IMG/VR virus record: IMGVR_UViG_2711768068_000024
Strand: one strand, 5' to 3'
DNA from: a virus
Taxonomy: Duplodnaviria; Heunggongvirae; Uroviricota; Caudoviricetes
DNA: 43,439 nt
Under the pieces are notes generated by a model that saw only the letters and a list, made by a program, of their open reading frames with translations, ran no database searches and had not been told where the DNA came from. The position numbers were made by a program, and so were the translations under genes. This document shows, piece after piece, positions 698-38,172 of the stretch (the stretch's first letter is position 1; the number at the start of each line of letters is the position of its first letter).

Positions 698-1060
698 GGG
701 GCTGATTCTGGATTCGACGGGATTTGCGAAACCCAAGGTGCATGCCGAGGGGCGGTTGGCCTCGTAAAAAGCCGCAAAAAATAGTCGCAAACGACGAAAA
801 CTACGCTTTAGCAGCTTAATAACCTGCTTAGAGCCCTCTCTCCCTAGCCTCCGCTCTTAGGACGGGGATCAAGAGAGGTCAAACCCAAAAGAGATCGCGT
901 GGAAGCCCTGCCTGGGGTTGAAGCGTTAAAACTTAATCAGGCTAGTTTGTTAGTGGCGTGTCCGTCCGCAGCTGGCAAGCGAATGTAAAGACTGACTAAG
1001 CATGTAGTACCGAGGATGTAGGAATTTCGGACGCGGGTTCAACTCCCGCCAGCTCCACCA
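698..1060 (+). ncRNA. ssrA: tmRNA (SsrA), ~363 nt
   Basis: Begins GGGGCTGATTCTGGATTCGACGGG, contains the tag reading frame GCAAACGACGAAAACTACGCTTTAGCAGCTTAA (ANDENYALAA*), ends GGTTCAACTCCCGCCAGCTCCACCA. Confidence 0.95.
1016..1060. repeat. attL: 45-bp direct repeat (ssrA 3' end), left prophage junction
   Basis: ATGTAGGAATTTCGGACGCGGGTTCAACTCCCGCCAGCTCCACCA occurs identically at ~38005-38049; flanks diverge immediately outside both copies. Confidence 0.85.
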
Positions 1061-1979: not shown

Positions 1980-3080
1980 TTATTCCATTTCAAGATCATC
2001 AATCTTCACTTCGAGTTCAATACTGGTTGTAAAACCGTTATCCGGGCTGACGGTATGTGTCAGAGTCGTAATGGTCCATTCCGCATCATCTATCGGCTGT
2101 TTAAAACCACTGACCTTCACAGGCATTTCCGTGTAGAGATCTGCCCGCCCTTCTGCCAGTTGTAGCGAAAATGACGCAACGCCGCGTTGCAGGCGTTCCC
2201 ACTGCATTTTCGCCGCTCGTTCGGCGTTGCTCCGGTTGGCATAAGTGCGATTAAGTACCAGCACGTTTTCATCCGTACCCACCAGGTAATCGCCCTGCTT
2301 CGCTTCTGGCTCTTTCTTCTGCTTCTTAGTTCTGCGCTTACGCTTCACCGTGGTGCTTTCTTTCTTCGCAGGTTCGCGGGTATGCAACCAGCTGGCAATT
2401 ACGCCCGTGTAGGCTCCGCGATCTGCCAGGGTAAATCGGTGACTGTCGCCGTCCTTGCGTGTGATAGTGATCACTGGCAGAGGTTTACCAGTGGCGCTTT
2501 TGCCCTGCCCCTGCCGGATGAATAACAGATTGCCATTTTTCACCGACGCGATGGCACCGTACTGTCGCGCCAGCCGCATCAGAAAACTGCCGTCACTCTC
2601 ATTAGTCTGGTCTATATGCTCCACGGGCTTATCCGACAGGTCTTTACCCAGTGCCATCTTCAGCTTGTGCCGCGCGGCTATTTCCTTCACCACTTCCCCG
2701 ACGGTGGTCTTATGCCACGATTTTTCACGGCGGGTATTCAGCGTTTCCCGAAAATCAGCACTTCGCGCCCGGATAGTCAGGCGGTCCGGTACGCCAGTGT
2801 GTTCAATCTCGTCCACTGTGAATGCCCCTTTCGGGAAAAGCGGCTGCCCCTTCCAGCCCAGCGCCAGCGTAATGACCGCACCACGGCGCGGCAGCACGAT
2901 TTTTCCGTCAGCGTCATCCAGCTCCAGATCAAGCTGGTCCGCTTCAAAGCCCCGGTTATCCGTCAGCGTCAGACTCATCAGGCGGTTATCCAGCACAGTG
3001 GTGATATCCCTGCCCTCAATACTGATGCTGAATGCGGGAGTTTTGTTGCCTTTGTTAAGCAGTTCAGAGCTGAAATTCAC
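1980..3080 (-). CDS. Tail protein gpD
   Basis: 366-aa ORF at the P2 gene D position (after U, before ogr). Confidence 0.8.
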   Translation of the reverse strand: MNFSSELLNKGNKTPAFSISIEGRDITTVLDNRLMSLTLTDNRGFEADQLDLELDDADGKIVLPRRGAVITLALGWKGQPLFPKGAFTVDEIEHTGVPDRLTIRARSADFRETLNTRREKSWHKTTVGEVVKEIAARHKLKMALGKDLSDKPVEHIDQTNESDGSFLMRLARQYGAIASVKNGNLLFIRQGQGKSATGKPLPVITITRKDGDSHRFTLADRGAYTGVIASWLHTREPAKKESTTVKRKRRTKKQKKEPEAKQGDYLVGTDENVLVLNRTYANRSNAERAAKMQWERLQRGVASFSLQLAEGRADLYTEMPVKVSGFKQPIDDAEWTITTLTHTVSPDNGFTTSIELEVKIDDLEME

Positions 3081-3562
3081 GACAGCAGCCCTCCCACCGT
3101 TTTACTGATATCGCTTAAGGCAGACGTTGCCGTGTCCTGCAGATTATTCAGTTGCGCACTGAGATCACCGAACATATCGGACAGGGATTCATCCACTCGT
3201 TTGAGCGACAGGGTGAACTCAATCCGGCGCGGCATACCGTCGCGGAAAAACTCCGTTTTAGTCTGATTCAGTCCCTCAATCACATACATGCCGTAAATCG
3301 TGCCGCTGCCTTCAATCAGGGGCCATGCTTTCCCCTGTTCTGCCATCTGCTCCAGTGCCAGCAACGACAGCCTGCCGCCTGTTATCTCCGGCATAAGAAC
3401 ACCAGAAAGCGTCAGCATGTCGTTTTCCGGTCCCAGAAACTGCGTGGACGGACGTCGGTTTACCCGACTGTTTGCCGCATGTCGCCAGCTGCGTTGATAC
3501 TGCAGTTCCTGATACGGAACGGTGCGCAGCATAAACACGTACAATCCCAGCACCATCATCAT
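3077..3562 (-). CDS. Tail protein gpU
   Basis: 161-aa ORF, 4-nt overlap with D and T, P2 synteny. Confidence 0.8.
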   Translation of the reverse strand: MMMVLGLYVFMLRTVPYQELQYQRSWRHAANSRVNRRPSTQFLGPENDMLTLSGVLMPEITGGRLSLLALEQMAEQGKAWPLIEGSGTIYGMYVIEGLNQTKTEFFRDGMPRRIEFTLSLKRVDESLSDMFGDLSAQLNNLQDTATSALSDISKTVGGLLS

Positions 3563-6500
3563 GCGTCGTATCCCCCCTGATCGCTGTAGTTACTCCTGGC
3601 TTTTGCCTTCAGCCTGCGTTCACGTTCATCAAGCTGGCGTGCCACCTCCCGCGCAATATCCTGCGCACTTTGTCCTGGCTGCGTCTGAATGATGATCTGC
3701 GTCGGTGCCTCAATCCGTTGAACGAGTGGCACAGTGGCTGCGCGACTCACCATCGCTTCACCGCCTTTCGCGGGAAGTGCCAAAGGGTGCAGCGGTGGAA
3801 GCTCTGCTGGCGCGGCAGCAACGCCCATCATTCCGGCAACAACGGCAGCCAGTGCAGCTGTATTTCTCCGGCTGGTCACATTTGCCGGGCCGTTAACAAT
3901 TTCCGGCCCGTTTTCACCGACGATGCCAAACTGCCCGCGCGGGATATACCCGCCGCTGTCATACATCCCCGCAAAGCCATATCCCCATGATGGAAAACCA
4001 CCCGATGGCATCATCACTTTACCGTCTGCATTCACCGTCGCAGGTTGCTGACGCGTCACGCTTTCCGGCAGTTTTGCCTTTGCGGCCTCTTTACTGACAA
4101 TACCGAGCTTCTCCAGCAACCAGGAAACGCCGGATTTCAGGGAGTCCAGCGGATGCATGACCATATTCAGCCCTTCCGCCAGTGCCTCCCCGAATCGCCG
4201 CCCCATTGCCGCTGCACTCTGCAGTTCGGCAGAGGTCGACTTAACGGGCGTCAGCAGATCAGTAAACCAGCCCCACAGCGCCTGTACATTGTCGCTAATC
4301 CACTGAAACACAGGCTTAAGTGGTTCGAATGCAGCACTGATGGGACCTGCCGCCGCTTTGAATCCTTCCACCACGCCACCGAGAAATGCGGTGATGGGTT
4401 GCCAGTATTTCCAGACAACCAGCGCCACGCCCGCCAGTGCAGTAACCACAAGACCTATCGGACTGAGCAGAGCACCTAACAGACCAGATATGGCATACAG
4501 GGCAACGCGCAGCATCGCCAGCGGACCAGATGCAAGCACACGAAGCACCGCGCCTGCGGCAGCCAGCCCACCGCGCAGAACCGCCAGAGGATTCATAAAC
4601 ATCACAGCAACAGCACGTAAAGCGGATAATCCAGACCGCAATAGTGCAACCGGCGCACCTGCTACAGTTTTCAGGACATTTCCCGTCAGTGATGCCGTAC
4701 GGCGCAAAGACGACAACGGCGCAGTAAGTAAACCCGCTGCGTTACACGATGAAGCAAGCCCGCGTCGCAGCACTGCCAGTGGAGCGCCAGCCAGCCAGGA
4801 CAACGCGCTGCTGGTTCGTGTTACTGCTGCCGTAACGGAAGGTAACGTTTTGATGCCCAGCACAGAGAATCCCAGACGGATGACTGCCAGCGGCCCCAGC
4901 ACTGCAGCCAGCGCCACAGCCAAGGTGCCGAGGCCTACGGTAACCGCAGCCACCACAGCTGCTACTTTCATCAGTGTGCCTGTCAGTTCCGGGTTAGCTT
5001 CCACCCAGCGGCGCAACGCCCCCGTGATGCTTTTCACCGTGTACAGAATATCCATCAGCGGCTGGCGCAGCGTTTCGCCCAGGCTGCTGAAGGTGTTCTG
5101 CGCTCCGGTTTTGACCAGCAACCACTGCGCAGAAAGTGAGTCCTTGTTAATGTCGGATTCTTTCTGCATGGAGCCGAGCGCATCATTGCCCGCTGTCAGT
5201 TTTAGCTGGCGCTGCAGTTCCGGCAGGTTGTTTGCCAGTTTCGCCGCGTCATCGCCAAACTCTTTACCAAACAACATGGTCATGGCAGACAGACGTTTAT
5301 CCTGCGGCAGTGCGTTCACCTTCTCCAGTACGCGCTGGATAGTTCCCATCGCATCCTTCGTCATCTGCTTTTCAATCACTTCAGGATTGAGTTTCAGCAG
5401 ATTCATCCCTTCAAAGAAACTCTTGCTTTGCATGGTGGCAATGGACAATTCACGCACCATCGCGTTTGCTGCACTGGCTGCAACCTCCGGCGCAGCGCCC
5501 AGTGTCAGAAAGGTGGAACCCAGTGCCGCCGCTTTACGATAATCCAGACGGTCAGCCACACCGCCCAGACGTTGCATCACATCAATGATGTCCGCCCCTT
5601 TCGACATGGCGTTATCATCCAGATAGTTCAGCGCATCGCCGAGCTGTTCAATATTGCGGGTAGGTATTTTGTAGAGCTGGGCGATTTTCCCCAGACTTTC
5701 TGACAGTTCATCCGCTGGCAGCTCAAAGGCTGTTGCCGCCTTTGCTGCCGTACTGGCGAAGGCCAGCAGGTCACGTTTCTGGTCCTCCCAGCTGTCGTCA
5801 GGGTTTGCGACATTCATGCGCGCCCCACCTTCAACCAGTGCAGCGAAATCCACCGCACCGTTTTCCATCGGCAACTGTTCGCTGGCAGCCTTGATGGCAT
5901 CCTGCATTTCATAAAAACGTGCAGTGCGGTTGCCATTATCGTCACGCAGACCATTGACCTGCTTTGCCACACCTTTCATGGCATCTTCCATGCTGGTATA
6001 GCTTTTTACTGCCGCCATCACTGGCGTCCCCATTGCCAGCCCTGCCGCCGTGGTGGTGGCTCCGGTTCCTGCGATGCGATCGCGCACCTCCAGCGAACGG
6101 GCATAACTGGCACGCGCTGCATTCATCCTGCGCTGAGCTTCCCCCAGTCGCTTCAGCCGCGCCTCCTGTTTCGACAGTTCCTGGTTATAACGTGATGTTT
6201 CACGGGCTAAACGGGCAGTTGCTCCCGCATCATCTTTCGCAGAAATTCCCGCCCGGTACAGTTCAGCACGCACAAGCGCCGTTTGCTTCTGCAAATATTT
6301 TTGTTGTTCTTCCAGGCGTTGGACTGCCAGCGTTTGCCGACCTAAAGCCACAAGATGCCTTTGTGATGGTTGCTCCATCGCCTCCAGCTCAGAGCTAAGC
6401 AAATTAGCCTTCTGTCTGGCATAGTTCAGCCTGTCGCCTAACTTCTTGTTACCAGCCTGCAGCTTGCGAAATTTTTCCAGGCTGTTACCCACCTGATTGA

Positions 6501-6636
6501 GTTGCTTTAATGCGTCACGGGAGTTTCTGATTGCGCCAGCCAGCTCTTTCGAACTGGCCTGTGCAGCACGGAATGGGCGGGTGAGTTTGTCAACCGCATT
6601 AAGAATGACCTGCAGGCGCAGGTTGTTATCACTCAT
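3559..6636 (-). CDS. Tail tape measure protein gpT
   Basis: 1025-aa Ala/Leu-rich protein with central hydrophobic repeats, between E and U. Confidence 0.85.
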   Translation of the reverse strand: MSDNNLRLQVILNAVDKLTRPFRAAQASSKELAGAIRNSRDALKQLNQVGNSLEKFRKLQAGNKKLGDRLNYARQKANLLSSELEAMEQPSQRHLVALGRQTLAVQRLEEQQKYLQKQTALVRAELYRAGISAKDDAGATARLARETSRYNQELSKQEARLKRLGEAQRRMNAARASYARSLEVRDRIAGTGATTTAAGLAMGTPVMAAVKSYTSMEDAMKGVAKQVNGLRDDNGNRTARFYEMQDAIKAASEQLPMENGAVDFAALVEGGARMNVANPDDSWEDQKRDLLAFASTAAKAATAFELPADELSESLGKIAQLYKIPTRNIEQLGDALNYLDDNAMSKGADIIDVMQRLGGVADRLDYRKAAALGSTFLTLGAAPEVAASAANAMVRELSIATMQSKSFFEGMNLLKLNPEVIEKQMTKDAMGTIQRVLEKVNALPQDKRLSAMTMLFGKEFGDDAAKLANNLPELQRQLKLTAGNDALGSMQKESDINKDSLSAQWLLVKTGAQNTFSSLGETLRQPLMDILYTVKSITGALRRWVEANPELTGTLMKVAAVVAAVTVGLGTLAVALAAVLGPLAVIRLGFSVLGIKTLPSVTAAVTRTSSALSWLAGAPLAVLRRGLASSCNAAGLLTAPLSSLRRTASLTGNVLKTVAGAPVALLRSGLSALRAVAVMFMNPLAVLRGGLAAAGAVLRVLASGPLAMLRVALYAISGLLGALLSPIGLVVTALAGVALVVWKYWQPITAFLGGVVEGFKAAAGPISAAFEPLKPVFQWISDNVQALWGWFTDLLTPVKSTSAELQSAAAMGRRFGEALAEGLNMVMHPLDSLKSGVSWLLEKLGIVSKEAAKAKLPESVTRQQPATVNADGKVMMPSGGFPSWGYGFAGMYDSGGYIPRGQFGIVGENGPEIVNGPANVTSRRNTAALAAVVAGMMGVAAAPAELPPLHPLALPAKGGEAMVSRAATVPLVQRIEAPTQIIIQTQPGQSAQDIAREVARQLDERERRLKAKARSNYSDQGGYDA

Positions 6637-7119: not shown

Positions 7120-7635
7120 TCAGAGGCCGAGGGCGTTGCGGTGCGCTTCCATCAGGTCCACACCGTCCACAATTTCCACCATGTTGATAAGGTCAACTTC
7201 ATAGAGCACCTCACCATTGATGGTCAGCTTCGCGTAGCTGTTGGTACTGGTCACTTTGGTAGTGTTGCTTTCGCCCGTCTTCCACTCGCCGGAATCCACT
7301 TCTTTGTGACGTCCACGCACGACAAGCTCCACGGCCTGCACTTCCCCGGTATCGTCACGCTGGATAGAGCCGGTAAAGCGCAGCTGGATGCCATCCACCG
7401 TGGATTTGCCCATCTGCTTAAACAGCAGCAGTTCAGTACCACCAATGGAAAATTCTGTATCCAGTGCACTGTCATCCAGTCCCAGATCCACATCCACCGC
7501 CCCCGGCATACCGCCGCCGCGATACTTCTCATATTTGCGGGTGAATTTCGGCAGCGTCAGCGACTCAACGATCCCCTGCCAGTTGTTCCCGTCGTTAAAC
7601 AAGTTCAGATGTTTTAATTTGCGTGGTAAAGCCAT
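7120..7635 (-). CDS. Tail tube protein gpFII
   Basis: 171-aa ORF directly downstream of the sheath gene. Confidence 0.85.
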   Translation of the reverse strand: MALPRKLKHLNLFNDGNNWQGIVESLTLPKFTRKYEKYRGGGMPGAVDVDLGLDDSALDTEFSIGGTELLLFKQMGKSTVDGIQLRFTGSIQRDDTGEVQAVELVVRGRHKEVDSGEWKTGESNTTKVTSTNSYAKLTINGEVLYEVDLINMVEIVDGVDLMEAHRNALGL

Positions 7636-7644
7636 GTTGTCCCC

Positions 7645-8817
7645 TTACGCGCTGACCTGGCTGGCGAAATTCACCAGGTACTGATCGGTGATGCGCTGGC
7701 GCAGCATCAGATTTTCAAGTGGCGGCACTGGCGTGTAGTCATAGTCGATGGTGAGTTTTCCGGCTTTCAGAGTGTCTTTGTCGTTCACCGACTCGTCCAG
7801 CCAGCAATCACCACCAATGAGATACCCCTGACTGACCAGGCTGCGCATTTTGGCGCGGATGCCCTCGATAATGTCGCGCGCCAGCGACGGGTTCAGCGGT
7901 TTGTCCACTGCCCACATGTGCGCTTCTGCCATTGTGTCCGTCAGCACCTGCGCCGTGCGGGTGTAGTTTTCGAAGGCAAAGAGCGGGTCATCACTCAGGC
8001 AGCGGGAACCCCAGAAGCGGAAACCGTCTTTACGCACAAGCGTAGTGACGTCGTTCTGGTTCAGCAGACCTGCATCGGTTGCCGGGTCCTGCAGATCCCA
8101 GAACACATCTGCAGAAATTCCGGTGACACCGTTCACGCCCACGTTGGACAGGCTTTTGTGCCACCCAGTCTGCTCATCAATTTTGGCACGCAGACCAAGC
8201 GCACGGGCGGTGGCATATGCCGTTGCTTCGGCATTCAGCACCGTGTCCCAGCCAGTAAAGTCGGGCCAGATCAGCATTCCTTCGCGCTGGCTGAAGTTTT
8301 CACGGTAAGTGATCGCCTCCTGCACCGTATTGCAGCCATACGCTGACAGGTAAGCAAACCCACGCAGGCTTTGCGCCACACTCAGCAACTCAGTAGCAAC
8401 GGCTTTGTTATCGTGACCTGGCACGCCGAGAATGCGCGGTTTAACGCCGAGCTGTGTCTGGGCAGATAACAGGGCTTTCATGCCTGTTTTTTTACCTTCA
8501 GCAGTCACTGCGCCGATGATATTGGTCGTGGTTTCTTCTTCCGTTTCACCCTGCGGCACACGCACAACAACGGTCACGGGTTTTGCCTGGTCAGCGATGG
8601 CATCCAGCGAACGGGCCAGCGTGCCGGACTCACCCGCTTTACCGCTGGCAGTCAGCACATCAGTGATCAGCACGGGTTTATTAAGAGGAAACATTTTTGC
8701 ATCGGCATCATCGCCCGTGCAGACCATACCCACGATGGCGGTGCTCACCGTGGTAATGGATCGGGTGCCTTCGTTGATTTCAACAACGCGCACCCCGTGG
8801 TGGTAATCCTGAGCCAT
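7645..8817 (-). CDS. Tail sheath protein gpFI
   Basis: 390-aa ORF, P2 FI-like size and position. Confidence 0.9.
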
Positions 8818-9608
8818 AGCGGCGAACCTCCTGATTGGATTAGGCTTCGCCCTATGTTGAAGTGATTGTGCCCGACAAACAGCTAAGTGTAGTTGTACAG
8901 TTATTCACACAAAATGACGGTATTTGTCTACTTGCAGGGATAATCAAAATTATGCTGATTCAGGGGATTCACTGCTCTTATTTGCCGGAAATTTTCTATA
9001 AATGGTAGAAATGCCCACATCAAAAATCAGTGCAATACGCTGTCTTGATTCTCCGGCCTCTAGTAAACGTCCAATCTGTGCCCACTGTTCGGTGGTCAAC
9101 TTAGGACGGCGTCCACCTACTCTGCCTTTGTCGCGAGCTGCAGCAATCCCCGCCCTGGTACGTTCAACTATCAGTTCGCGTTCCATTTCAGCCAGGGCAC
9201 CCATGACATGAAAAAAGAAACGGCCCATTGGGGTACTGGTATCAATACTGTCAGTCAGGCTTCGGAAATTCACGCCACGCTGGCGCAACTCTTCTATCAG
9301 CGTAACAAGATGCCGCATACTGCGTCCCAACCTGTCCAGCTTCCAGACAACCAGCGTGTCACCTGCCGATAGTGTCCTGAGTAGTTTTTTCAGCCCCGGT
9401 CTGTCGGACTTAGTGCCACTGATTTTGTCCTCAAAAATCCGCTCACATCCCGCACAGTTCAGTGCATTGCGTTGCAAATCGGTGTTCTGGTCATTTGTTG
9501 ACACGCGTACATAGCCAATAAGCATGATCATCCCCCTGAATAAAAACCGGAGATGATGCCAGTTAGCCGTTATCTCTGCATTTTCATAAACGTTGGTTTG
9601 GGAGAAGC
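8333..9608. repeat. Left copy of a 1276-bp perfect inverted repeat (5' 485 bp of sheath gene + invertase gene + crossover site)
   Basis: Mirror image of 11137..12412 (left + right coordinate = 20745); identical translations of invertase (193 aa) and sheath N-terminus (160 aa) in both copies; intergenic stretches compared by eye. Confidence 0.85.
8950..9531 (-). CDS. Serine DNA invertase (Hin/Gin/Cin/Pin family)
   Basis: 193 aa from MIMLIGYVRVSTNDQNTDLQ... (resolvase N-terminal catalytic Ser motif), C-terminal HTH; track ORF 8950..9624 has an unlikely N-terminal extension. Confidence 0.9.
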   Translation of the reverse strand: MIMLIGYVRVSTNDQNTDLQRNALNCAGCERIFEDKISGTKSDRPGLKKLLRTLSAGDTLVVWKLDRLGRSMRHLVTLIEELRQRGVNFRSLTDSIDTSTPMGRFFFHVMGALAEMERELIVERTRAGIAAARDKGRVGGRRPKLTTEQWAQIGRLLEAGESRQRIALIFDVGISTIYRKFPANKSSESPESA

Positions 9609-10227
9609 AACATTTGGCGCTCAAAATTGCGCTGTATTTGATAATGCAGGCGTCAGCACCTGGAATGTTCCTGACATAGTGAAAAAGGGCCGACGCGTCA
9701 GGGTGAAGGTTATCGGCGGTGGCGGGTCTGGCGGTTACCCGTCGATAAGCTCAACGAACGCTGCCGGTGGCGGCGGCGGTGGCGGCGGTGGTGTGAGCGA
9801 GTCCGTCATTGACTTAACAGGTATTGACACCGTCACAATCACTGTAGGCAGTGGTGGCGAAAGTCAAAATACGTCAGCAAGAAATGGAAATCCTGGCGGC
9901 ACCAGTAGTTTTGGCGCATATCTCTCGGCAACAGGTGGAGACGGTGGGGGGCAGGTATCCGGAGGAGCGGGGGGAAAAGGTGTGGGGGGGCAGATAAATA
10001 CGTCTCTTGGCCCTGGCTCTCCTGGTGCATCAATGATAGCAGGCACTGATTCGGCTGTCGGAGGTAGCGGTGGTGGTCCTGGCGGGAATGGACAGGTTTT
10101 AGATTCGGCGGGGAATGTTGGCAGTAATGCAAAAGGTCCTGGCGGTGGTGGCGCTGGGTTGGCAACGAAAAAGATTGGCGGAGTTACTGGTGCTGGTCAT
10201 AGCGGGATTGTAATTATTTATTGGTGA
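9553..10227 (+). CDS. Alternative tail-fibre C-terminal cassette (Gly-rich), currently not joined to the fibre N-terminus
   Basis: Reads ...GLGEA then diverges at the crossover site; Gly-rich fibre-tip-like sequence; lies inside the invertible segment on the strand opposite gene H. Confidence 0.6.
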   Translation: MMPVSRYLCIFINVGLGEATFGAQNCAVFDNAGVSTWNVPDIVKKGRRVRVKVIGGGGSGGYPSISSTNAAGGGGGGGGGVSESVIDLTGIDTVTITVGSGGESQNTSARNGNPGGTSSFGAYLSATGGDGGGQVSGGAGGKGVGGQINTSLGPGSPGASMIAGTDSAVGGSGGGPGGNGQVLDSAGNVGSNAKGPGGGGAGLATKKIGGVTGAGHSGIVIIYW

Positions 10228-10237
10228 GGTATAAATT

Positions 10238-10396
10238 ATGTGGGCACGAATTGAAAACAACGTGGTAATGGAGTTAACTGATATAGACCCAACGGGTAGA
10301 TATCATGACTCGTTAATCTGGGTTGAATGCCCTGCTGACACACAGCCGGGCTATACATACAGTAGCGGCGAATTTACTCCACCACCGGAGGCGTAG
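10238..10396 (+). CDS. Short tail-fibre-assembly-like ORF (52 aa), partner of the alternative cassette
   Basis: ATG with GAGG RBS right after the cassette; MWARIENNVVMELTDIDPTGRYH...; converges on and overlaps the 3' end of the opposite-strand assembly gene; below the 60-aa track cutoff. Confidence 0.35.
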   Translation: MWARIENNVVMELTDIDPTGRYHDSLIWVECPADTQPGYTYSSGEFTPPPEA

Positions 10397-10787
10397 GCCA
10401 TTCAATATCTGGCGCACCGGAAGTATCGACCAGTTCCAGTGCGTCCAGATAATCCAGCCACAAATTATATTGCGCCAGTTCCTCACTTTTCAGACGACCA
10501 ATAGCCGCTTTACCAGGCCATTGTCTGTTGTTCATGTGCTCGTTGGCTTCATTAATAAGTTTTCTTTTTTTCAAATCCGCCAATTCAATAAGGTTTTCTT
10601 TTGATAAAGGTGGTTGCTCTGTCAAAACCGGATATCCCTCCTGATTGCTGACTATTTTCATGCCATTATCCTGACCATCCAGTAGTAACAGCCATTCATC
10701 CGTGGTTATCTCAACAGCATCTGAAGGTGCTTTATTTAAATCGGTAAAAAAACCATTTTCTTTTTGTGAATAGAAGTATCTGTCCAT
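10374..10787 (-). CDS. Tail fibre assembly protein (gpG-like)
   Basis: 137-aa ORF directly downstream of the fibre C-terminal cassette. Confidence 0.7.
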   Translation of the reverse strand: MDRYFYSQKENGFFTDLNKAPSDAVEITTDEWLLLLDGQDNGMKIVSNQEGYPVLTEQPPLSKENLIELADLKKRKLINEANEHMNNRQWPGKAAIGRLKSEELAQYNLWLDYLDALELVDTSGAPDIEWPTPPVVE

Positions 10788-10790
10788 TTA

Positions 10791-11192
10791 TTAATCTCCA
10801 AAAGCAATCCAGTAAGCAAAAGGATTTATTCCTTGCTCAGTCACAGATGACATTAGGGAAAATTGCGATGGTGAAACAGGTAACGCTGCAAAACTAACCA
10901 TTGTTGACACACCTGACCGTGCATTATCGTACGATGCAACAACACAATAATTGGTATTGCTGAAAGATATCGGCAGGGTGATATTTACAGGTGAGCCTAA
11001 TGGCCCTGATGCTGATATTCCCATTTGAATGATGGTTCCATCAGGCAATTTTCTCCAGCGATTAGAACTCGGATTTCTTTTCCAGGCTGACATATCCGGT
11101 ATCTGATTTTCTCCTGTGCCTACATCCCTTTTCGCCGCTTCTCCCAAACCAACGTTTATGAAAATGCAGAGATAACGGCTAACTGGCATCAT
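10791..11192 (-). CDS. Tail-fibre C-terminal cassette carrying the native continuation of H (..[11 protein letters not shown]...PVNITLPISF...AFGD)
   Basis: Shares 173 bp with the 3' end of gene H (12414..12586), then continues 62 codons past the point where H is cut short. Confidence 0.6.
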   Translation of the reverse strand: MMPVSRYLCIFINVGLGEAAKRDVGTGENQIPDMSAWKRNPSSNRWRKLPDGTIIQMGISASGPLGSPVNITLPISFSNTNYCVVASYDNARSGVSTMVSFAALPVSPSQFSLMSSVTEQGINPFAYWIAFGD

Positions 11193-12412
11193 CTCCGGTT
11201 TTTATTCAGGGGGATGATCATGCTTATTGGCTATGTACGCGTGTCAACAAATGACCAGAACACCGATTTGCAACGCAATGCACTGAACTGTGCGGGATGT
11301 GAGCGGATTTTTGAGGACAAAATCAGTGGCACTAAGTCCGACAGACCGGGGCTGAAAAAACTACTCAGGACACTATCGGCAGGTGACACGCTGGTTGTCT
11401 GGAAGCTGGACAGGTTGGGACGCAGTATGCGGCATCTTGTTACGCTGATAGAAGAGTTGCGCCAGCGTGGCGTGAATTTCCGAAGCCTGACTGACAGTAT
11501 TGATACCAGTACCCCAATGGGCCGTTTCTTTTTTCATGTCATGGGTGCCCTGGCTGAAATGGAACGCGAACTGATAGTTGAACGTACCAGGGCGGGGATT
11601 GCTGCAGCTCGCGACAAAGGCAGAGTAGGTGGACGCCGTCCTAAGTTGACCACCGAACAGTGGGCACAGATTGGACGTTTACTAGAGGCCGGAGAATCAA
11701 GACAGCGTATTGCACTGATTTTTGATGTGGGCATTTCTACCATTTATAGAAAATTTCCGGCAAATAAGAGCAGTGAATCCCCTGAATCAGCATAATTTTG
11801 ATTATCCCTGCAAGTAGACAAATACCGTCATTTTGTGTGAATAACTGTACAACTACACTTAGCTGTTTGTCGGGCACAATCACTTCAACATAGGGCGAAG
11901 CCTAATCCAATCAGGAGGTTCGCCGCTATGGCTCAGGATTACCACCACGGGGTGCGCGTTGTTGAAATCAACGAAGGCACCCGATCCATTACCACGGTGA
12001 GCACCGCCATCGTGGGTATGGTCTGCACGGGCGATGATGCCGATGCAAAAATGTTTCCTCTTAATAAACCCGTGCTGATCACTGATGTGCTGACTGCCAG
12101 CGGTAAAGCGGGTGAGTCCGGCACGCTGGCCCGTTCGCTGGATGCCATCGCTGACCAGGCAAAACCCGTGACCGTTGTTGTGCGTGTGCCGCAGGGTGAA
12201 ACGGAAGAAGAAACCACGACCAATATCATCGGCGCAGTGACTGCTGAAGGTAAAAAAACAGGCATGAAAGCCCTGTTATCTGCCCAGACACAGCTCGGCG
12301 TTAAACCGCGCATTCTCGGCGTGCCAGGTCACGATAACAAAGCCGTTGCTACTGAGTTGCTGAGTGTGGCGCAAAGCCTGCGTGGGTTTGCTTACCTGTC
12401 AGCGTATGGCTG
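11137..12412. repeat. Right copy of the 1276-bp perfect inverted repeat
   Basis: Reverse complement of 8333..9608; ends mid-codon inside the sheath sequence. Confidence 0.85.
11214..11795 (+). CDS. Serine DNA invertase, second identical copy
   Basis: Translation identical to 8950..9531. Confidence 0.85.
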   Translation: MIMLIGYVRVSTNDQNTDLQRNALNCAGCERIFEDKISGTKSDRPGLKKLLRTLSAGDTLVVWKLDRLGRSMRHLVTLIEELRQRGVNFRSLTDSIDTSTPMGRFFFHVMGALAEMERELIVERTRAGIAAARDKGRVGGRRPKLTTEQWAQIGRLLEAGESRQRIALIFDVGISTIYRKFPANKSSESPESA

Positions 12413-12413
12413 A
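11928..12413 (+). pseudogene. Duplicated 5' fragment of the tail sheath gene (first 160 codons), truncated at the duplication junction
   Basis: Identical to the first 160 aa of gpFI, then an immediate stop created at the repeat boundary. Confidence 0.8.
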
Positions 12414-13634
12414 GATATTTACAGGTGAGCCTAATGGCCCTGATGCTGATATTCCCATTTGAATGATGGTTCCATCAGGCAATTTTCTCCAGCGATTAGA
12501 ACTCGGATTTCTTTTCCAGGCTGACATATCCGGTATCTGATTTTCTCCTGTGCCTACATCCCTTTTCGCCGCTTCTCCCAAACCAAGGTATGTGAGAAGA
12601 CCAGCTACATCCTTTCCACTCAAATTAGTCAGCGTATTGTCCAGCGGTTGTTTACCTGCCAGCGCATTAAGCATTGTCGTGGCAAAGTTCGGGTCATTCC
12701 CCAGCGCCGCCGCCAGTTCGTTCAATGTATCCAGTGCCGCAGGTGCAGAACCCACCATTCCTGCAATCGCCGATTTCACAAAAGCCGTAGTGGCAATCTG
12801 TGTATTGTTGACCGACTGTGCCGCAGTAGGTGCTGTTGGCGTTCCGGTAAGTGCCGGACTCGACAGCGGCGCTTTCAGTGCCAGCGCATTATTAATAGTG
12901 GTACTGAATTTCGGGTCATTGTTAATGGCTGCGGCAATTTCTTTCAGTGTGTCCAGCGTGGCTGGCGCACCGTTAATCAGAGCAGTAATAGCGGCCTGAA
13001 CAAACTCTGTGGTCGCAATCCGAGTGGTGTTATTTCCTGCTGCAGGCGTCGGCGCTTTTGGTTCTCCGGTAAATGTCGGATTATGTTTCTGCGCATACTG
13101 GGTATGAGGATCTTGTGCGGCAATGTGGTTTCTCATCTGGTCATCCACATACAGCTTTAATTCCAGGACTTTATCATCCACGTATTTACGGGTTGCCAGC
13201 ACTACAGCAGGGTCGATTTTCAGGATGATATTGTCCGTGCTGCTGGTAATCAGCACCATGCGCACGGTCTGGGTACGCCCGCTGCCTTCAGCCAGTTGCG
13301 GCTTATAGCTTTCCGGGCAGTTTCCCACGGCAATCAATGCCCCGGACTCATCAAACAGGCCCACTTCACGTATCCACCAACCGCCCTCGTTTTCAGGGAT
13401 CACCTGTTCAGCAATAATCTGGCTACTGTTCTGCGGGTCGATATAAAGCATATTCAACGCAGCCCGGCGTTTCTCATTTACCAGTGCCGTCTGCTTTGCG
13501 TCCGGCGTCGGTAATACTCCGCCGCCATCGCCGACCGCCATATGGGTAATTTTTAGCGGCACACCGAGCGCGGCGGCGCTGGCAAGTTTCGCCGCGCCAA
13601 TATCCGTCAGCAGGGTATAAAATTTTGTGCTCAT
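12399..13634 (-). CDS. Tail fibre protein gpH (constant N-terminal part; C-terminus cut by the junction)
   Basis: N-terminus [21 protein letters not shown]...MAVGDGGG is P2 H-like; ends ...PVNISAIR* where the last 4 codons come from the junction sequence. Confidence 0.85.
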
Positions 13635-14236
13635 GGATTCACTCTCATTGTGTCAATAACATGGACCGCCCCGCCTTCATGCGCGGTGCCGCCAGAAATA
13701 ATTGTTTCGTTGATATACGGATAAATCGTGATTTCTTCGCCAAGATAGCTGGCAGCTCCCACCCAATGCGGGCCGCTGGTCTGCAGATTGATGGACATGC
13801 CGATCATGTGGCGGCTACATGGTTTGGCATCGCTTATCAGTCGCTCAAGTTCCAGATAAGTATCTTCAGTGATGCCCTGGTCCTGCACGCCGATATCCAG
13901 GCGAAACGTGCCCGGTGCCTCTCCGGTCTGCCACCACTCAATAATGCGGATCAGAAAGCCGAACGGCTCCACCACCCGCCGCACGGCACTGGTGGTCCCT
14001 TTATGCTGATGAATATAAAAAGCATCCTTCACCACCTGGCGCTTGACGCTTTCTGTCCAGCCCTCGTCCCAGCGATCCACAGAGAACGCCCAGGCGAGAT
14101 AAGGCAGGAAACTGACCGGGCAGGTTGCCGGATTCCACAAGTCACGAAGCGGCACCTGCAGATCAGAAATCCCGCTGCAGGTTTGCGCCAGTCGGCGCTC
14201 CAGTGGTGTTGAACCCGGTGGCAGCAGACTATTCAT
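13631..14236 (-). CDS. Baseplate protein gpI
   Basis: 201 aa, P2 synteny, 4-nt overlap with H. Confidence 0.8.
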
Positions 14237-16172: not shown

Positions 16173-17159
16173 ATGAAAAATAAGAACCAGTATCAGGCTT
16201 TACTTAGAGGGAAGGTCGAATCGGCGATTGCTCAAGCCAAAAGTGCTGCAGGATTTTCCCACCAGGGTGTTAAGGGAGCTGTTCTAGAAATATTATTAAG
16301 TCAACTATTTCGACCTCTTTTGCCCGCAGATGTTGGCATTGGCACAGGGCAAATCATTGAACAGTATTCAGGAAAGTTATCACCTCAAATAGATATTATT
16401 ATTTACAATAAATCAATACTCCCTCCGATATTAATCGATGGTGCCACAGGGTTATTCCCAATAGAATCAGTTCTATATACCATTGAGGTAAAAACCACAT
16501 TAAGTTCATCGGAACTCAGCTCTGCACACTCAAGTGCAAAAGAACTTAATGAGAAATTCGGTTACTTACCTGGAATAAAAGATGAATCAGGCAAACTAAT
16601 CCAACACAAAATAGAGAAACTTCGCTCGGTAATATTTGCTCTAAGTAGTGACTTATCACCAAATGGAATTACTGAAGCCGAAAGGTATAAAAAAATATAC
16701 AAAGAAGACTTTCGTTACGTTACAGCAATTTGCGTTGCAGGTCGTGAGTATAGTTATGAAGATCGAGATTGCTGGGTAACAATGCGTAATACTCAAGCGT
16801 ATGATGAAATCCTTGCATTTATTGGAGGCATAACCAATACATACAAAGGTGTTTCAGAAAGTCGTGGGACACCATTGCTAGGATATTACATTGTTCCAGA
16901 GAATGTCGAACTGAGCCTTACAGCTTGTACCACACTCCCGGAATTGCAAGTTAAGTGCACGCAATGCGCTGAAACTAAAAAAATAATCCCCACCTTTGAC
17001 AACGATGATGAACTAATACTAAAAAACTACACTCTTTCTGATAACAAGCCTTGTAAATGTGGTGGGGAATTTAAATCAGAAAAAGGTAATTTCACCATTA
17101 AAAATGGTCGACTGAGAGAAATAGAGTACAACGAGCCAGATCGAATTTACAAAGAGTAA
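16173..17159 (+). CDS. Cargo (moron) protein: possible PD-(D/E)xK-type motif with C-terminal zinc ribbon; function unknown
   Basis: 328-aa AT-rich ORF on the opposite strand between tail genes V and S; N-terminal region has a possible E...D...E-x-K arrangement (LEILL / QIDIIIYNK / TIEVK); C-terminus CTQC...CKCGG. Confidence 0.65.
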   Translation: MKNKNQYQALLRGKVESAIAQAKSAAGFSHQGVKGAVLEILLSQLFRPLLPADVGIGTGQIIEQYSGKLSPQIDIIIYNKSILPPILIDGATGLFPIESVLYTIEVKTTLSSSELSSAHSSAKELNEKFGYLPGIKDESGKLIQHKIEKLRSVIFALSSDLSPNGITEAERYKKIYKEDFRYVTAICVAGREYSYEDRDCWVTMRNTQAYDEILAFIGGITNTYKGVSESRGTPLLGYYIVPENVELSLTACTTLPELQVKCTQCAETKKIIPTFDNDDELILKNYTLSDNKPCKCGGEFKSEKGNFTIKNGRLREIEYNEPDRIYKE

Positions 17160-25585: not shown

Positions 25586-26326
25586 TTACTCAATAGGTTC
25601 AAACTCATCCTGAGGAATCAGCGTCGATTGACAGGCTTGGCTTAGTACTCCTGATAATTTACATAATAACCGATAGTTATGAGGAGCATCATCGCTAATC
25701 TTTTCGACCGTTAAAGTGATTGATTTTGGATCATCCAATAACATCTTCTTGATATCATTACTTAAATACCTAGGGCAGTAACCAACGATTTCAGCTGGTT
25801 TATCTGCACGAACGACAACAGCATCCCCATCGTATTCATTTTGAAGATCCAAGCAAAGACGCAAAATTTGCCCCGGTTTCAATTCAGATACACGAGCATT
25901 AGCTAAGCTATTTAAGTAACCAAGTCCATGTAAGAAGAAAAAATGCTCAAAGTTACCATCAGAATCAACATCAATTTTTTTGAAAATCTGCAGCTGATCA
26001 GTGCTTCGTAAGCCTCCCGAGCGAGCAAGAATATCGATAGGATTTACCTTATCTTCTTCAAATCCAAGCCATTTAATGAAACTCGGATACTCTGGACGTC
26101 TCGGTGATAAAAGGCGATTTTTAAAAAGAGGAAACAATTCTTCCGAAACATAAGTTTCACGAACATCACTCATGCCGCTAAACTTTGTAAATTTAGTAGA
26201 TTTAAGAGCACCTTTGGTATACCTGAAAACATACCCCGATTTGCGCTCTTGCAAGTTACCAACAACATGCCAGTCTCTGGTATCTGGTGCCTGCCATGCG
26301 ACGTAAACGGAGTTTGTATTAGTCAT
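25586..26326 (-). CDS. HipA-N-terminal-like domain fused to HIRAN-like domain
   Basis: 246 aa; N-terminus VYVAWQ..VVGNL..YVFRY..ELFPLFKNRLL resembles the HipA N-terminal subdomain; C-terminus ILRLCLDLQNEYDGDAVVVRADKPAEIVGYCPRYL fits the HIRAN pattern; 4-nt overlap with the upstream kinase gene. Confidence 0.55.
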   Translation of the reverse strand: MTNTNSVYVAWQAPDTRDWHVVGNLQERKSGYVFRYTKGALKSTKFTKFSGMSDVRETYVSEELFPLFKNRLLSPRRPEYPSFIKWLGFEEDKVNPIDILARSGGLRSTDQLQIFKKIDVDSDGNFEHFFFLHGLGYLNSLANARVSELKPGQILRLCLDLQNEYDGDAVVVRADKPAEIVGYCPRYLSNDIKKMLLDDPKSITLTVEKISDDAPHNYRLLCKLSGVLSQACQSTLIPQDEFEPIE

Positions 26327-37919: not shown

Positions 37920-38004
37920 AAATTAGTAAAATGGACAAACACTACATAACAATAACGCACTGTTTTTAAATGCAAACTACTGTTTTTGCTATAGTAAAAA
38001 TGGT

Positions 38005-38049
38005 ATGTAGGAATTTCGGACGCGGGTTCAACTCCCGCCAGCTCCACCA
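38005..38049. repeat. attR: second copy of the 45-bp ssrA 3'-end repeat
   Basis: Identical to 1016..1060; followed by a hairpin/T-tract and then the P4-type integrase gene, i.e. the original ssrA 3' flank. Confidence 0.85.
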
Positions 38050-38085
38050 CTTTTTAGTTGTTTGAAGTTCAATGAAGTCTACTAA

Positions 38086-38117
38086 GCCCACACAGCACAA
38101 GCTCTGCGGGCTTTTTT
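38086..38117 (+). terminator. Probable displaced native ssrA terminator
   Basis: Imperfect hairpin GCCCACACAGC..GCTCTGCGGGC followed by TTTTTT. Confidence 0.4.
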
Positions 38118-38172
38118 ACGTCTATTGTCGTCCAGTGAGAATTGCTGAGAACTACGAGTTATGGCACCCTGA

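What the first reader, a model, noticed from the sequence alone, without database searches (positions are those of the whole stretch)
9595..11152. Invertase-controlled tail-fibre C-terminus switch with crossover inside the GLGEA codons
Within the 1528-bp unique segment between the repeat copies there are two oppositely oriented fibre C-terminal cassettes, each followed by its own assembly gene. One is Gly-rich (+ strand, 9595..10227) and the other carries the native-looking continuation of H (- strand, ..10791). Both begin with the same GGTTTGGGAGAAGC (GLGEA) sequence, which forms the inner ends of the inverted repeats. This is the classic Mu G / P1 C style host-range switch, driven by the adjacent Hin-family invertase. 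The two receptor specificities encoded here are unknown.
Basis: partly seen in the sequence, partly recalled or inferred. Interest (0 to 1): 0.4.

Follow-up and report, generated by a model that had tools for sequence, protein, structure and literature searches.

The report
Prophage tail-fibre inversion switch, rearranged copy
This is an ordinary, well-known kind of phage host-range switch, in which an invertase flips a DNA segment to change the tip of the tail fibre. Here it sits in an E. coli P2-like prophage in an unusual rearranged state where neither tip is attached to the fibre gene.

Summary
The 1528-bp unique segment (9609-11136) carries two opposed fibre C-terminal cassettes: Gly_rich_2 at 9595-10227 (+) and Gp53-like_C at 10791-11150 (-). 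Both start at the same TTGGTTTGGGAGAAGC block.

The recombinase is a Pin/Gin-type serine invertase, 85% identical to e14 PinE and 75% to Mu Gin. Its crossover site is 26/26 identical to the e14 pix site next to pinE.

Near-identical prophages in other E. coli genomes carry the same segment in both orientations, so inversion happens in nature. This is a new member of a known kind.

- The segment is bracketed by two identical invertase-side arms (exact 1276-nt inverted repeat), not by fibre gene H and the invertase.
- The H-side site lies 1.4 kb away at 12573-12598.
- H is truncated at 411 aa.

In silico inversion between sites 9581-9606 and 12573-12598 gives a perfect 1434-bp tandem duplication and an intact H::Gly-rich gene. 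That gene region is identical to the one in E. coli F719. The window is therefore best read as tandem duplication followed by one invertase-mediated inversion, giving a fibre-null isomer of a three-site, four-state system. An assembly artefact is not excluded.

The "assembly gene" of the Gly-rich cassette is an unannotated, conserved 52-aa ORF.

The parts
7645..8817 (-). Full-length tail sheath gene (P2 FI-like, 390 aa). Its 5' 485 nt (8333-8817) lie inside repeat arm 1.
   Evidence: Pfam Phage_sheath_1 / _1C / Gp18_domIII_N; ORF list.
8333..9608 (.). Arm 1 of the exact 1276-nt inverted repeat: sheath 5' part, intergenic region, whole invertase gene, invertase-side half of the crossover site plus the shared 16-nt block.
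   Evidence: 0 mismatches to 12412-11137.
8950..9525 (-). Invertase copy 1 (191 aa), a Pin/Gin-type serine DNA invertase.
   Evidence: Resolvase E 8e-53 plus HTH_7. 75% identical to Mu Gin with no gaps. 85% identical to e14 PinE. Best solved structures are Gin 3UJ3/4M6F, E 4e-93, against gamma-delta resolvase at 3e-33. Ser9, R7, D64, R65, R68 present.
9441..9504 (-). Candidate recombinational enhancer, copy 1. Two 15-bp G...C Fis-core-like motifs (GTGTCAACAAATGAC, GTGCGGGATGTGAGC) at nt 22-36 and 71-85 of the invertase gene.
   Evidence: Same positions as in Mu gin in a gap-free alignment. The near motif is 96.5 bp from the crossover-site centre and the pair spans 64 bp. Hin has a 65-bp enhancer about 100 bp from hix (PMC3798978). 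Function is inferred, not tested.
9581..9606 (+). Crossover site C (26 bp): TTTTCATAAACG TT GGTTTGGGAGAA, core 9593-9594. Invertase-side half joined to the Gly-rich cassette half.
   Evidence: 26/26 identical to the e14 pix site next to pinE.
9595..10227 (+). Gly-rich fibre C-terminal cassette (210 aa), with no start codon of its own. In frame with H codon 350 after inversion, giving a 560-aa fibre.
   Evidence: Gly_rich_2 E 1.8e-11. In-frame fusion. The fused gene exists at 100% identity in E. coli F719 and 97.6% in L73.
10238..10396 (+). Conserved 52-aa ORF directly after the Gly-rich cassette; candidate small fibre chaperone. It overlaps the 3' end of the opposite Tfa gene by 23 nt.
   Evidence: No Pfam or PHROG match. 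14 homologous clusters of 50-84 aa with 17 invariant residues. Always 5-10 nt downstream of a Gly_rich_2 fibre gene in two different baseplate backgrounds. AF2 pLDDT 93. Fold resembles the Pam3 fibre chain 7ypx_a and viral 'tail assembly chaperone' / DUF4376 proteins, TMq 0.75-0.78.
10374..10787 (-). Tail-fibre assembly gene (137 aa) serving the gp53-like cassette.
   Evidence: Caudo_TAP E 5e-25; phrog_188 E 5e-49; 49.6% identical to e14 TfaP.
10791..11150 (-). gp53-like fibre C-terminal cassette (119 aa). Fused to H it gives a 469-aa fibre.
   Evidence: Gp53-like_C E 1.2e-13. In-frame fusion. The fused form is annotated in E. coli 23-AB02114.
11139..11164 (-). Crossover site A (26 bp): TTCTCCCAAACC AA CGTTTATGAAAA, core 11151-11152. 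gp53-cassette half joined to an invertase-side half.
11137..12412 (.). Arm 2 of the exact 1276-nt inverted repeat; the extra, inverted copy.
11220..11795 (+). Invertase copy 2, identical to copy 1. Its candidate enhancer is at 11241-11304.
11928..12413 (+). Truncated sheath fragment (161 aa). It is cut at the junction, where a TGA stop is created.
12412..12414 (.). Novel non-homologous junction: sheath nt 485 (12412), one orphan A (12413), then gp53 cassette nt 173 (12414). This is the only join in the region that is neither colinear with relatives nor at a crossover site.
   Evidence: Not hix-like: 11-14 of 24 half-site matches, which is background. Absent from 5,426 complete E. coli genomes, GTDB species representatives, IMG/VR and JGI metagenomes.
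12414..12586 (-). Second copy of the first 173 nt of the gp53-like cassette, exact, at offset 1434. This copy is the one attached to H.
12573..12598 (-). Crossover site B (26 bp), the H-side site: TTCTCCCAAACC AA GGTATGTGAGAA, core 12585-12586.
   Evidence: Its outer half differs at 4 positions from the invertase-side half.
12399..13634 (-). Tail-fibre gene H: constant part (codons 1-350) plus 57 codons of the gp53 cassette, then SAIR and stop. Truncated at 411 aa.
   Evidence: Phage_tail_fib N-terminal domain E 7e-64. Translation. Intact relatives are 469 or 560 aa.

Best explanation
The region is a Pin/Gin-type site-specific inversion switch for the C-terminus of the P2-like tail fibre protein H. 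It lies in an E. coli prophage integrated next to ssrA.

How it works. A 191-aa serine invertase acts on 26-bp sites whose cassette-side half encodes G-L-G-E. By analogy with Hin, Gin and Pin, it is helped by Fis bound to an enhancer inside the 5' end of its own gene. It exchanges DNA at the central TT/AA dinucleotide, so H codons 1-350 are joined in frame to one of two tips:
- a Gp53-like tip (469-aa fibre, expressed with a Caudo_TAP chaperone), or
- a Gly_rich_2 tip (560-aa fibre, expressed with a 52-aa ORF).

What is unusual here. In this sequence the switch is caught in a rearranged isomer. A 1434-bp unit arose as a tandem duplication while the prophage was in the Gly-rich-ON orientation. 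The unit holds the sheath 5' 485 nt, the invertase, the crossover site and the first 173 nt of the gp53 cassette. The invertase then inverted everything between the H-side site (12573-12598) and the distal copy of the invertase-side site (9581-9606).

Consequences. There are three sites, two invertase genes and four interconvertible isomers. Two isomers make a complete fibre. The other two, including the one in the window, leave H truncated at 411 aa with neither cassette attached.

Shown: anatomy, homology, in-frame fusions, natural orientation variants, and exact reconstruction of the tandem duplication. Inferred: the order of events, Fis/enhancer dependence, the exact cut position, receptor specificities, and that the duplication is real rather than an assembly error.
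For: Invertase family.
- Resolvase+HTH_7.
- 85% identical to PinE and 75% to Gin.
- Best solved structures are Gin.
- Catalytic Ser9 is present, as are the equivalents of Hin K47/R48/K51 and Q151/R154/L155. PMC3798978 reports these as uniquely conserved among Fis-dependent invertases.

Sites.
- Exactly three in 43 kb, far above chance.
- Sites A and C are 26/26 identical to the e14 pix site next to pinE.
- The e14 P-segment repeats TTGGTTTGGGAGAAGG are experimentally invertible (PMC12529663).

Inversion in nature.
- The predicted H::Gly-rich joint, absent from the window, exists at 100% identity in F719 and 97.6% in L73.
- L73 and 23-AB02114 carry the same prophage, 99.9% identical on the invertase side. 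Their 1.56-kb segment is inverted, with boundaries in the 16-nt block.
- Of 10 E. coli genomes with the Gly-rich cassette, 2 have it fused to H and 8 do not.
- Inversion in P2-like prophages was shown experimentally in EPEC, including a 3-repeat, 4-variant locus (PMC4272514).

Duplication-plus-inversion model.
- In silico inversion between the cores of sites C and B yields a perfect tandem repeat of period 1434 (1433 consecutive matching positions).
- Collapsing it gives a map colinear with normal relatives.
- The F719 prophage is 99.9% identical over 26 kb, sits at the same ssrA site, and has the unduplicated Gly-ON arrangement.
- All four isomers were computed: H products of 560, 469, 411 and 411 aa.
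Against: - No reads are available, so neither orientation heterogeneity in this strain nor the reality of the 12412/12414 junction can be checked.
- The junction was found in no other public sequence. It is a private event or an error.
- The Fis sites are consensus-level matches at homologous positions only. Their centre-to-centre spacing measures 49 bp by my motif choice, and binding was not tested.
- The 52-aa ORF has no demonstrated role.
- In the arrangement present, the prophage would make fibre-defective particles. That fits a recent accident rather than a designed state.
Confidence: 0.8

Rival explanations
1. The extra inverted arm (11165-12598) is an assembly artefact. The real genome has the ordinary two-site switch (H, site, cassettes, site, invertase, sheath). 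A mixed-orientation culture or a chimeric read misled the assembler.
For: - The two arms are 100% identical over 1276 nt, as expected for a computational copy.
- The junction is unique among all collections searched.
- The arrangement inactivates H.
- Invertible segments are heterogeneous in cultures (PMC4272514), and this is known to confuse assemblers (own knowledge).
Against: - Mixed orientations alone create only adjacencies at crossover sites. The sheath-nt-485 | A | cassette-nt-173 join has no sequence overlap that an assembler could follow, so reads with that join must exist.
- The structure is exactly one legitimate site-by-site inversion away from a clean 1434-bp tandem duplication. 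That is a biologically coherent path an artefact has no reason to mimic.
Confidence: 0.2
2. The inverted duplication arose in one step by a replication template switch or fold-back, or by RecA-mediated events. The invertase played no part in shaping the present arrangement.
For: Inverted duplications with micro- or no homology at the junction are known products of template switching (own knowledge). The junction has an orphan base.
Against: - A one-step inverted insertion needs two novel joints, and only one exists.
- The other end of the extra copy is a perfect crossover site (site A). Its gp53-cassette | invertase adjacency is the native one seen in F719 and L73.
- The H-side half-site is joined to the duplicated cassette fragment precisely within the 16-nt block.
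Confidence: 0.05
3. The switch is a fossil. The cassettes and sites are relics and the invertase no longer acts, so the orientation is frozen.
For: Some relatives have lost the invertase. Yersinia phage MLG42 keeps a Gly-rich remnant and the 52-aa ORF between sheath and Tfa with no invertase gene. The F719 prophage is itself defective through a sheath-to-tape-measure deletion.
Against: - Both invertase copies are full length, with the catalytic and Fis-contact residues intact.
- The sites are perfect matches to an active pix site.
- Prophages 99.7-100% identical in the segment occur in both orientations.
- The window's own structure requires a site-specific inversion after a very recent duplication (0 mismatches).
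Confidence: 0.05

Closest known systems
e14 P segment / Pin invertase of E. coli K-12 (stfP-tfaP-tfaE-stfE-pinE)
   Same: - Invertase 85% identical.
- The invertase-side crossover site is identical at 26/26.
- The shared cassette-side block differs by 1 nt (TTGGTTTGGGAGAAGG against ...AGC) and also encodes LGLGE.
- The off-state ORF starts with the same read-in peptide (..IFINVGLGE..).
- Tfa is 49.6% identical to TfaP.
All. Inversion was shown experimentally (PMC12529663; PMC4272514).
   Different: - The host element is a P2-like myovirus prophage, not the lambdoid remnant e14.
- The cassettes differ: Gly_rich_2 and Gp53-like_C. The gp53 cassette is only 30% identical to StfP, and the Gly-rich cassette matches neither StfP nor StfE.
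- One cassette is paired with a 52-aa ORF rather than a Caudo_TAP gene.
- This copy has three sites and a duplicated invertase.
Phage Mu G segment / Gin (and P1 C segment / Cin)
   Same: - Constant fibre N-terminus outside the segment, with two opposed variable C-termini inside.
- Chaperone genes inside the segment.
- Adjacent invertase, 75% identical to Gin.
- Candidate Fis-enhancer motifs at the same gene positions as in gin.
From.
   Different: - The gix sequence differs (TTCCTGTAAACC GA GGTTTTGGATAA).
- The G segment is 3 kb with about 34-bp repeats, whereas the segment here is 1.56 kb.
- The fibre proteins are unrelated.
Invertible tail-fibre loci of P2-like prophages in EPEC E2348/69 (Goldberg et al. 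2014, PMC4272514)
   Same: - Hin-homologue invertase in P2-like prophages, flipping fibre C-termini in culture.
- One locus has three inverted repeats giving four coexisting genomic variants.
   Different: - There, the three repeats give three alternative C-termini, all functional.
- Here, the third site comes from a 1434-bp duplication, and two of the four variants are null.
Salmonella Hin / hix flagellar switch
   Same: 26-bp sites, a 2-bp core, a Fis enhancer inside the 5' end of the invertase gene about 100 bp from a site, and conserved Fis/enhancer-contact residues.
   Different: Hin flips a promoter, not a coding cassette.

Membership tests
Fis/enhancer-dependent serine DNA invertases (Hin/Gin/Cin/Pin) | Small serine recombinase: N-terminal catalytic domain with nucleophilic Ser9/10, and a C-terminal HTH DNA-binding domain. 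| tested here: met
   Resolvase E 8e-53 plus HTH_7 E 1.7e-14. Ser9, R7, D64, R65, R68 present. Gap-free 184-aa alignment to Gin.
Fis/enhancer-dependent serine DNA invertases (Hin/Gin/Cin/Pin) | Closer to characterised invertases than to resolvases. | tested here: met
   Gin structures at E 4e-93 against gamma-delta resolvase at 3e-33. 85% identical to PinE and 75% to Gin.
Fis/enhancer-dependent serine DNA invertases (Hin/Gin/Cin/Pin) | 26-bp imperfectly palindromic crossover sites in inverted orientation, with a shared 2-bp core. | tested here: met
   Three sites with an AA/TT core. C is inverted relative to A and B. A and C are identical to the e14 pix site. No other site in the window scores above 17 of 24.
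Fis/enhancer-dependent serine DNA invertases (Hin/Gin/Cin/Pin) | Residues that contact Fis and the enhancer (Hin K47/R48/K51; Q151/R154/L155). | tested here: met
   K46, K47, R50, Q150, R153 and L154 in the window protein, whose numbering is one less than Hin. Criterion taken from PMC3798978.
Fis/enhancer-dependent serine DNA invertases (Hin/Gin/Cin/Pin) | Recombinational enhancer with two Fis sites in cis, inside the 5' end of the invertase gene. | tested here: inconclusive
   Two G-N13-C motifs at gene nt 22-36 and 71-85, at the same positions as in Mu gin. They span 64 bp and the near one is 96.5 bp from the site centre. This fits the published geometry. Fis binding and enhancer activity cannot be tested here.
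Fis/enhancer-dependent serine DNA invertases (Hin/Gin/Cin/Pin) | The segment is actually found in both orientations. | tested here: met
   Shown for near-identical prophages in other strains. Also implied by the window's own structure. Not testable within the source culture.
Mu G / P1 C / e14 P type fibre host-range cassette switch | Constant fibre N-terminus outside the segment, and two opposed promoter-less C-terminal cassettes that fuse in frame at the crossover site. | tested here: met
   Fusions of 560 and 469 aa are in frame. Both fused genes are annotated in relatives.
Mu G / P1 C / e14 P type fibre host-range cassette switch | Each cassette is followed by its own tail-fibre assembly (Tfa/U) gene. 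| tested here: inconclusive
   The gp53 cassette has a Caudo_TAP gene. The Gly-rich cassette has only a 52-aa ORF with no family match. That ORF is conserved, syntenic with Gly_rich_2 fibres, and has a chaperone-N-domain-like fold.
Mu G / P1 C / e14 P type fibre host-range cassette switch | The invertible segment lies directly between the fibre constant part and the invertase, so one inversion swaps the expressed tip. | tested here: not met
   In this window both ends of the 1528-bp segment abut invertase-side arms. H is 1434 bp away and truncated. The feature is met in relatives L001, L003 and L004. In the window it would be met again after one inversion between sites C and B.
Mu G / P1 C / e14 P type fibre host-range cassette switch | The two orientations confer different host ranges. 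| not testable with these tools
   Different tip domains (Gly_rich_2 against Gp53-like_C) make this likely. The receptors are unknown.
R64-type shufflon (Rci tyrosine recombinase) | Tyrosine recombinase acting on 19-bp sfx repeats. | tested here: not met
   The recombinase is a serine resolvase/invertase and the sites are 26-bp pix-type.

The most novel reading that the evidence does not exclude
The duplicated arrangement is real and heritable. The prophage then cycles among four isomers through three crossover sites: tip A on, tip B on, and two fibre-null states. The inversion also converts an unstable tandem duplication, which homologous recombination could delete, into an inverted duplication that cannot be deleted that way. 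This would be a caught-in-the-act intermediate showing how invertible fibre loci gain extra sites, cassettes and invertase copies on the way to multi-cassette shufflon-like loci.
Probability: 0.3. Interest if true: 0.4.

Novelty: new member of a known kind. Interest (0 to 1): 0.25.

Why it matters
The switch adds nothing conceptually new. Pin/Gin/Cin-type fibre switches have been textbook material since the 1980s, and they have been shown to flip in P2-like prophages of E. coli.

Three smaller points have some value.
1. The Gly_rich_2 / Gp53-like cassette pair is rare (10 of 5,426 complete E. coli genomes), and its receptors are unknown. This is relevant to host-range engineering of P2-like phages and tailocins.
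2. If real, the window's structure is a natural record of invertase activity acting on a fresh duplication. It also shows that annotated "truncated tail fibre" genes next to invertases may be reversible states rather than decay.
3. The unannotated 52-aa ORF that travels with Gly_rich_2 fibre tips is a candidate minimal fibre chaperone, which annotation pipelines currently miss.

Tried and rejected
Searches for the junction.
- I searched for the 12412/12414 junction to see whether the rearrangement recurs or to find the source. Collections searched: E. coli complete genomes, GTDB species representatives, IMG/VR and JGI metagenomes. None held it.
- An exact-product look-up of the truncated H found nothing.
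- The 161-aa sheath fragment hit one 653-bp metagenome contig. That contig simply ends 2 nt before the junction and does not cross it, so it is a contig-end coincidence.

Pseudo-site hypothesis.
- I tested whether the duplication breakpoints (8333, 10980) or the F719 deletion breakpoints (8467, 5617) look like pseudo-crossover sites, which would implicate the invertase in the illegitimate events. They score 11-14 of 24, which is background. Rejected.

The 52-aa ORF.
- Pfam and PHROGs gave nothing, even at E 10 across all 14 family members.

Literature.
- Johnson's 2015 review of serine invertases (PMC4384473) is not held. The exact published coordinates of the Fis sites could therefore not be checked, and the enhancer call rests on homology with gin plus geometry.

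Other readings considered.
- An R64-type shufflon was rejected because the recombinase class is wrong.
- Independent expression of the off-state ORFs beginning MMPVSRYLCIFINV was considered. These are read-ins from the invertase upstream region, and e14 StfE shows the same pattern. The GGAG lies directly against the ATG, so I treat them as non-genes. This is inference.


Full report
**Context**

The window is E. coli chromosome. Its flanks are 99.6% identical to many E. coli genomes. It carries a P2-like (Peduoviridae, Elveevirus-like) prophage integrated beside ssrA. The tmRNA is at 698-1060, and the closest phage records are Cartapus and relatives.

The tail genes run on the minus strand:
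- I: 13631-14236
- H: 12399-13634
- sheath: 7645-8817
- tube: 7120-7635
- tape measure: 3559-6636

**Checking the observation**

The repeat finder reports a 1281-nt inverted repeat with 1528 nt between its arms. A base-by-base comparison trims this to an exact, mismatch-free 1276 nt: 8333-9608 against 12412-11137.

The unique segment 9609-11136 contains the following:

| Coordinates | Strand | Content | Evidence |
|---|---|---|---|
| 9595-10227 | + | Gly_rich_2 domain cassette | E 1.8e-11 |
| 10238-10396 | + | 52-aa ORF | no family match |
| 10374-10787 | - | Caudo_TAP assembly gene | E 5e-25 |
| 10791-11150 | - | Gp53-like_C cassette | E 1.2e-13 |

Both cassettes begin at the same block, TTGGTTTGGGAGAAGC. 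This block occurs three times in the window against 0.03 expected by chance. The description at the stated coordinates is therefore correct.

**The recombinase and its sites**

The gene next to the segment encodes a 191-aa Resolvase+HTH_7 protein.
- It is 75% identical to Mu Gin without gaps.
- It is 85% identical to e14 PinE.
- It matches Gin crystal structures at E 4e-93, against 3e-33 for gamma-delta resolvase.
- Ser9 and the other catalytic residues are present.
- So are the equivalents of Hin K47/R48/K51 and Q151/R154/L155. McLean et al. report these as conserved only in Fis-dependent invertases (PMC3798978).

Written as 26-mers, the sites are:
- C, 9581-9606: TTTTCATAAACG TT GGTTTGGGAGAA
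- A, 11139-11164: its exact reverse complement
- B, 12573-12598: TTCTCCCAAACC AA GGTATGTGAGAA

No other position in the window scores above 17 of 24 half-site matches. Sites A and C are 26/26 identical to the pix site beside pinE in E. coli K-12. The e14 repeats TTGGTTTGGGAGAAGG are experimentally invertible (PMC12529663).

Two Fis-core-like motifs lie at nt 22-36 and 71-85 of the invertase gene.
- They sit at the same positions as in Mu gin in a gap-free alignment.
- They span 64 bp, and the nearer one is 96.5 bp from the site centre.
- This fits the 65-bp enhancer about 100 bp from hix described for Hin.
- Their function is inferred only.

**Evidence that the segment flips**

I built the H::Gly-rich joint that inversion would create; it is absent from the window. 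It occurs at 100% identity over 500 nt in E. coli F719 and at 97.6% in strain L73, annotated there as a 560-aa phage tail protein.

Strain 23-AB02114 has H fused to the gp53-like cassette instead (469 aa). L73 and 23-AB02114 carry the same prophage, 99.9% identical on the sheath/invertase side. Their 1.56-kb segment is inverted at 99.7% identity, and the breakpoints fall inside the 16-nt shared block.

The Gly-rich cassette is rare. It occurs in 10 of 5,426 complete genomes, fused to H in 2 and unfused in 8.

More than a thousand E. coli genomes match the H constant part, and among the listed best hits the match mostly stops at about the shared block. The site therefore also marks the mosaic boundary for fibre tips.

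Goldberg et al. showed such loci flipping in P2-like prophages in culture (PMC4272514).

The segment is not bracketed by H and the invertase. Both of its ends abut identical invertase-side arms.

The H-side site B lies 1434 bp further on. It is attached to a second exact copy of the first 173 nt of the gp53 cassette (10980-11152 = 12414-12586). That copy then runs into an inverted sheath fragment at a non-homologous junction...GGCTG | A | GATATTT..., at 12412/12413/12414.

As a result H stops after 411 aa. Flipping the 1528-bp segment between the two repeat copies cannot change the fibre.

**Origin of the arrangement**

Inverting the window in silico between the cores of sites C and B produces a perfect tandem repeat of period 1434. 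Its unit is sheath 5' 485 nt + invertase + site + 173 nt of the gp53 cassette. The inversion also joins H to the Gly-rich cassette.

Collapsing the repeat gives a map colinear with normal relatives. The F719 prophage is 99.9% identical over 26 kb, sits at the same ssrA site, and has exactly that unduplicated Gly-ON map.

The simplest history is one illegitimate tandem duplication followed by one legitimate site-specific inversion.
- A one-step inverted insertion would need two novel joints, and only one exists.
- The breakpoints do not resemble crossover sites, so the duplication itself is not an invertase product.

With three sites there are four isomers:

| Isomer | State | H product |
|---|---|---|
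| T1 | Gly-rich ON | 560 aa |
| T2 | gp53 ON | 469 aa |
| T3 | null (the window) | 411 aa |
| T4 | null | 411 aa |

By inference, the tandem copies in T1 and T2 could be lost by homologous recombination. The inverted copies in T3 and T4 cannot be deleted that way, which may be why this state was captured.

**Caveat on the duplication**

The junction occurs in no other public sequence searched. No reads are available. An assembly artefact therefore remains possible, at roughly 0.2.

Against it, mixed orientations alone generate only joins at crossover sites. The sheath|cassette join has no overlap that an assembler could follow.

**The crossover position**

Comparing sites, and comparing natural inversion variants, resolves the exchange only to the 16-nt block TT-GGTTTGGGAGAAGC. 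By the family rule of 2-bp staggered cuts at the centre of the 26-bp site, exchange is at the TT of the Leu codon immediately 5' of G-L-G-E-A. That is at the edge of those codons rather than inside them.

**The second "assembly gene"**

The 52-aa ORF after the Gly-rich cassette has no Pfam or PHROG match. RefSeq leaves it unannotated in the three relatives examined.

Evidence that it is nevertheless a real gene:
- It has 14 homologous clusters of 50-84 aa with 17 invariant residues.
- It is 61.7% identical to an annotated CDS in a Pseudomonas phage.
- It lies 5-10 nt downstream of a Gly_rich_2 fibre gene in two unrelated baseplate backgrounds, one of them without any invertase.

Its AlphaFold model is confident (pLDDT 93, five beta-strands).
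- The model resembles a chain of the cyanophage Pam3 fibre structure (7ypx_a, TMq 0.77, E 0.03).
- It also resembles viral proteins named tail assembly chaperone, tail fiber assembly protein or DUF4376 (TMq 0.75-0.78, E 4e-3 to 0.1).

A chaperone role is plausible but untested.

**Verdict**

This is a known kind of system, a Pin/Gin-type fibre-tip inversion switch, with a rare cassette pair. It is present here in a rearranged fibre-null isomer that most likely records a recent duplication followed by an invertase-mediated inversion. Interest is low to modest.

Noticed in passing
L003/L005 (E. coli F719, NZ_OY754392.1), L005 34826-34834; window equivalents 8467 and 5617: The F719 copy of the same prophage is 99.9% identical. 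It has its own 2849-bp deletion joining sheath nt ~351 to the middle of the tape-measure gene. Its sheath breakpoint lies only 134 nt from the window's duplication breakpoint (8333). So two independent illegitimate rearrangements hit the sheath 5' region in sister prophages. There is a short microhomology, and the breakpoints are not crossover-site-like.
   Followed up: partly
window 10238-10396 (+); L010 4001-4165; L013 4001-4165; L007 3501-3656; L008 3001-3180: An unannotated, conserved 52-55-aa ORF family (MWARIENNVVMELTDIDP.GRFHPSLIWVECP...) always sits just downstream of Gly_rich_2 fibre genes, in both P2-like and unrelated myovirus baseplate modules. Its predicted fold resembles the N-terminal domain of tail-fibre chaperones. 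No Pfam or PHROG family exists for it.
   Followed up: yes
window 25586-27237 (-): A two-gene cargo pair in the prophage: a 304-aa protein with a weak HipA_C-like match (below Pfam's cutoff) and a 246-aa HIRAN protein. They match the PADLOC candidate defence system PDC-M03 A and B very strongly (E 2e-122 and 3e-93).
   Followed up: partly
window 16173-17159 (+): A DUF6602 / PD-(D/E)xK, NucC-like nuclease gene is inserted in the opposite orientation within the virion morphogenesis/baseplate gene cluster (PADLOC PD_DExK E 7e-32; NucC E 8e-14). It is probably a defence or accessory moron. It is absent from relatives L001 and L004, where the window alignment is interrupted between 16074 and 17247.
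   Followed up: partly
L007 (Yersinia phage MLG42, PP599993.1) 2713-3656: This related Elveevirus has a 171-aa Gly_rich_2 remnant and the small ORF between the sheath and Tfa genes, but no invertase gene. It looks like a frozen or decayed version of the same switch.
   Followed up: no
window 698-1060 (+) and 35836-39444: The prophage sits beside ssrA (tmRNA, tag ANDENYALAA). Two integrase genes follow one another at the far end (35836-36852 and 38173-39444), which suggests tandem islands at the ssrA site. Beyond 38530 the window diverges from F719, which has an IS3 insertion there.
   Followed up: no
window 9553-9594 and 11153-11192: ORF callers extend both off-state cassettes upstream to an ATG in the invertase leader (MMPVSRYLCIFINV-GLGEA...). 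RefSeq annotates these read-in ORFs as 'phage tail protein' or 'gp53-like domain-containing protein' in relatives. e14 stfE (MPFACYFFIFINVGLGEG...) shows the same pattern. They are probably annotation artefacts of the silent cassette.
   Followed up: partly
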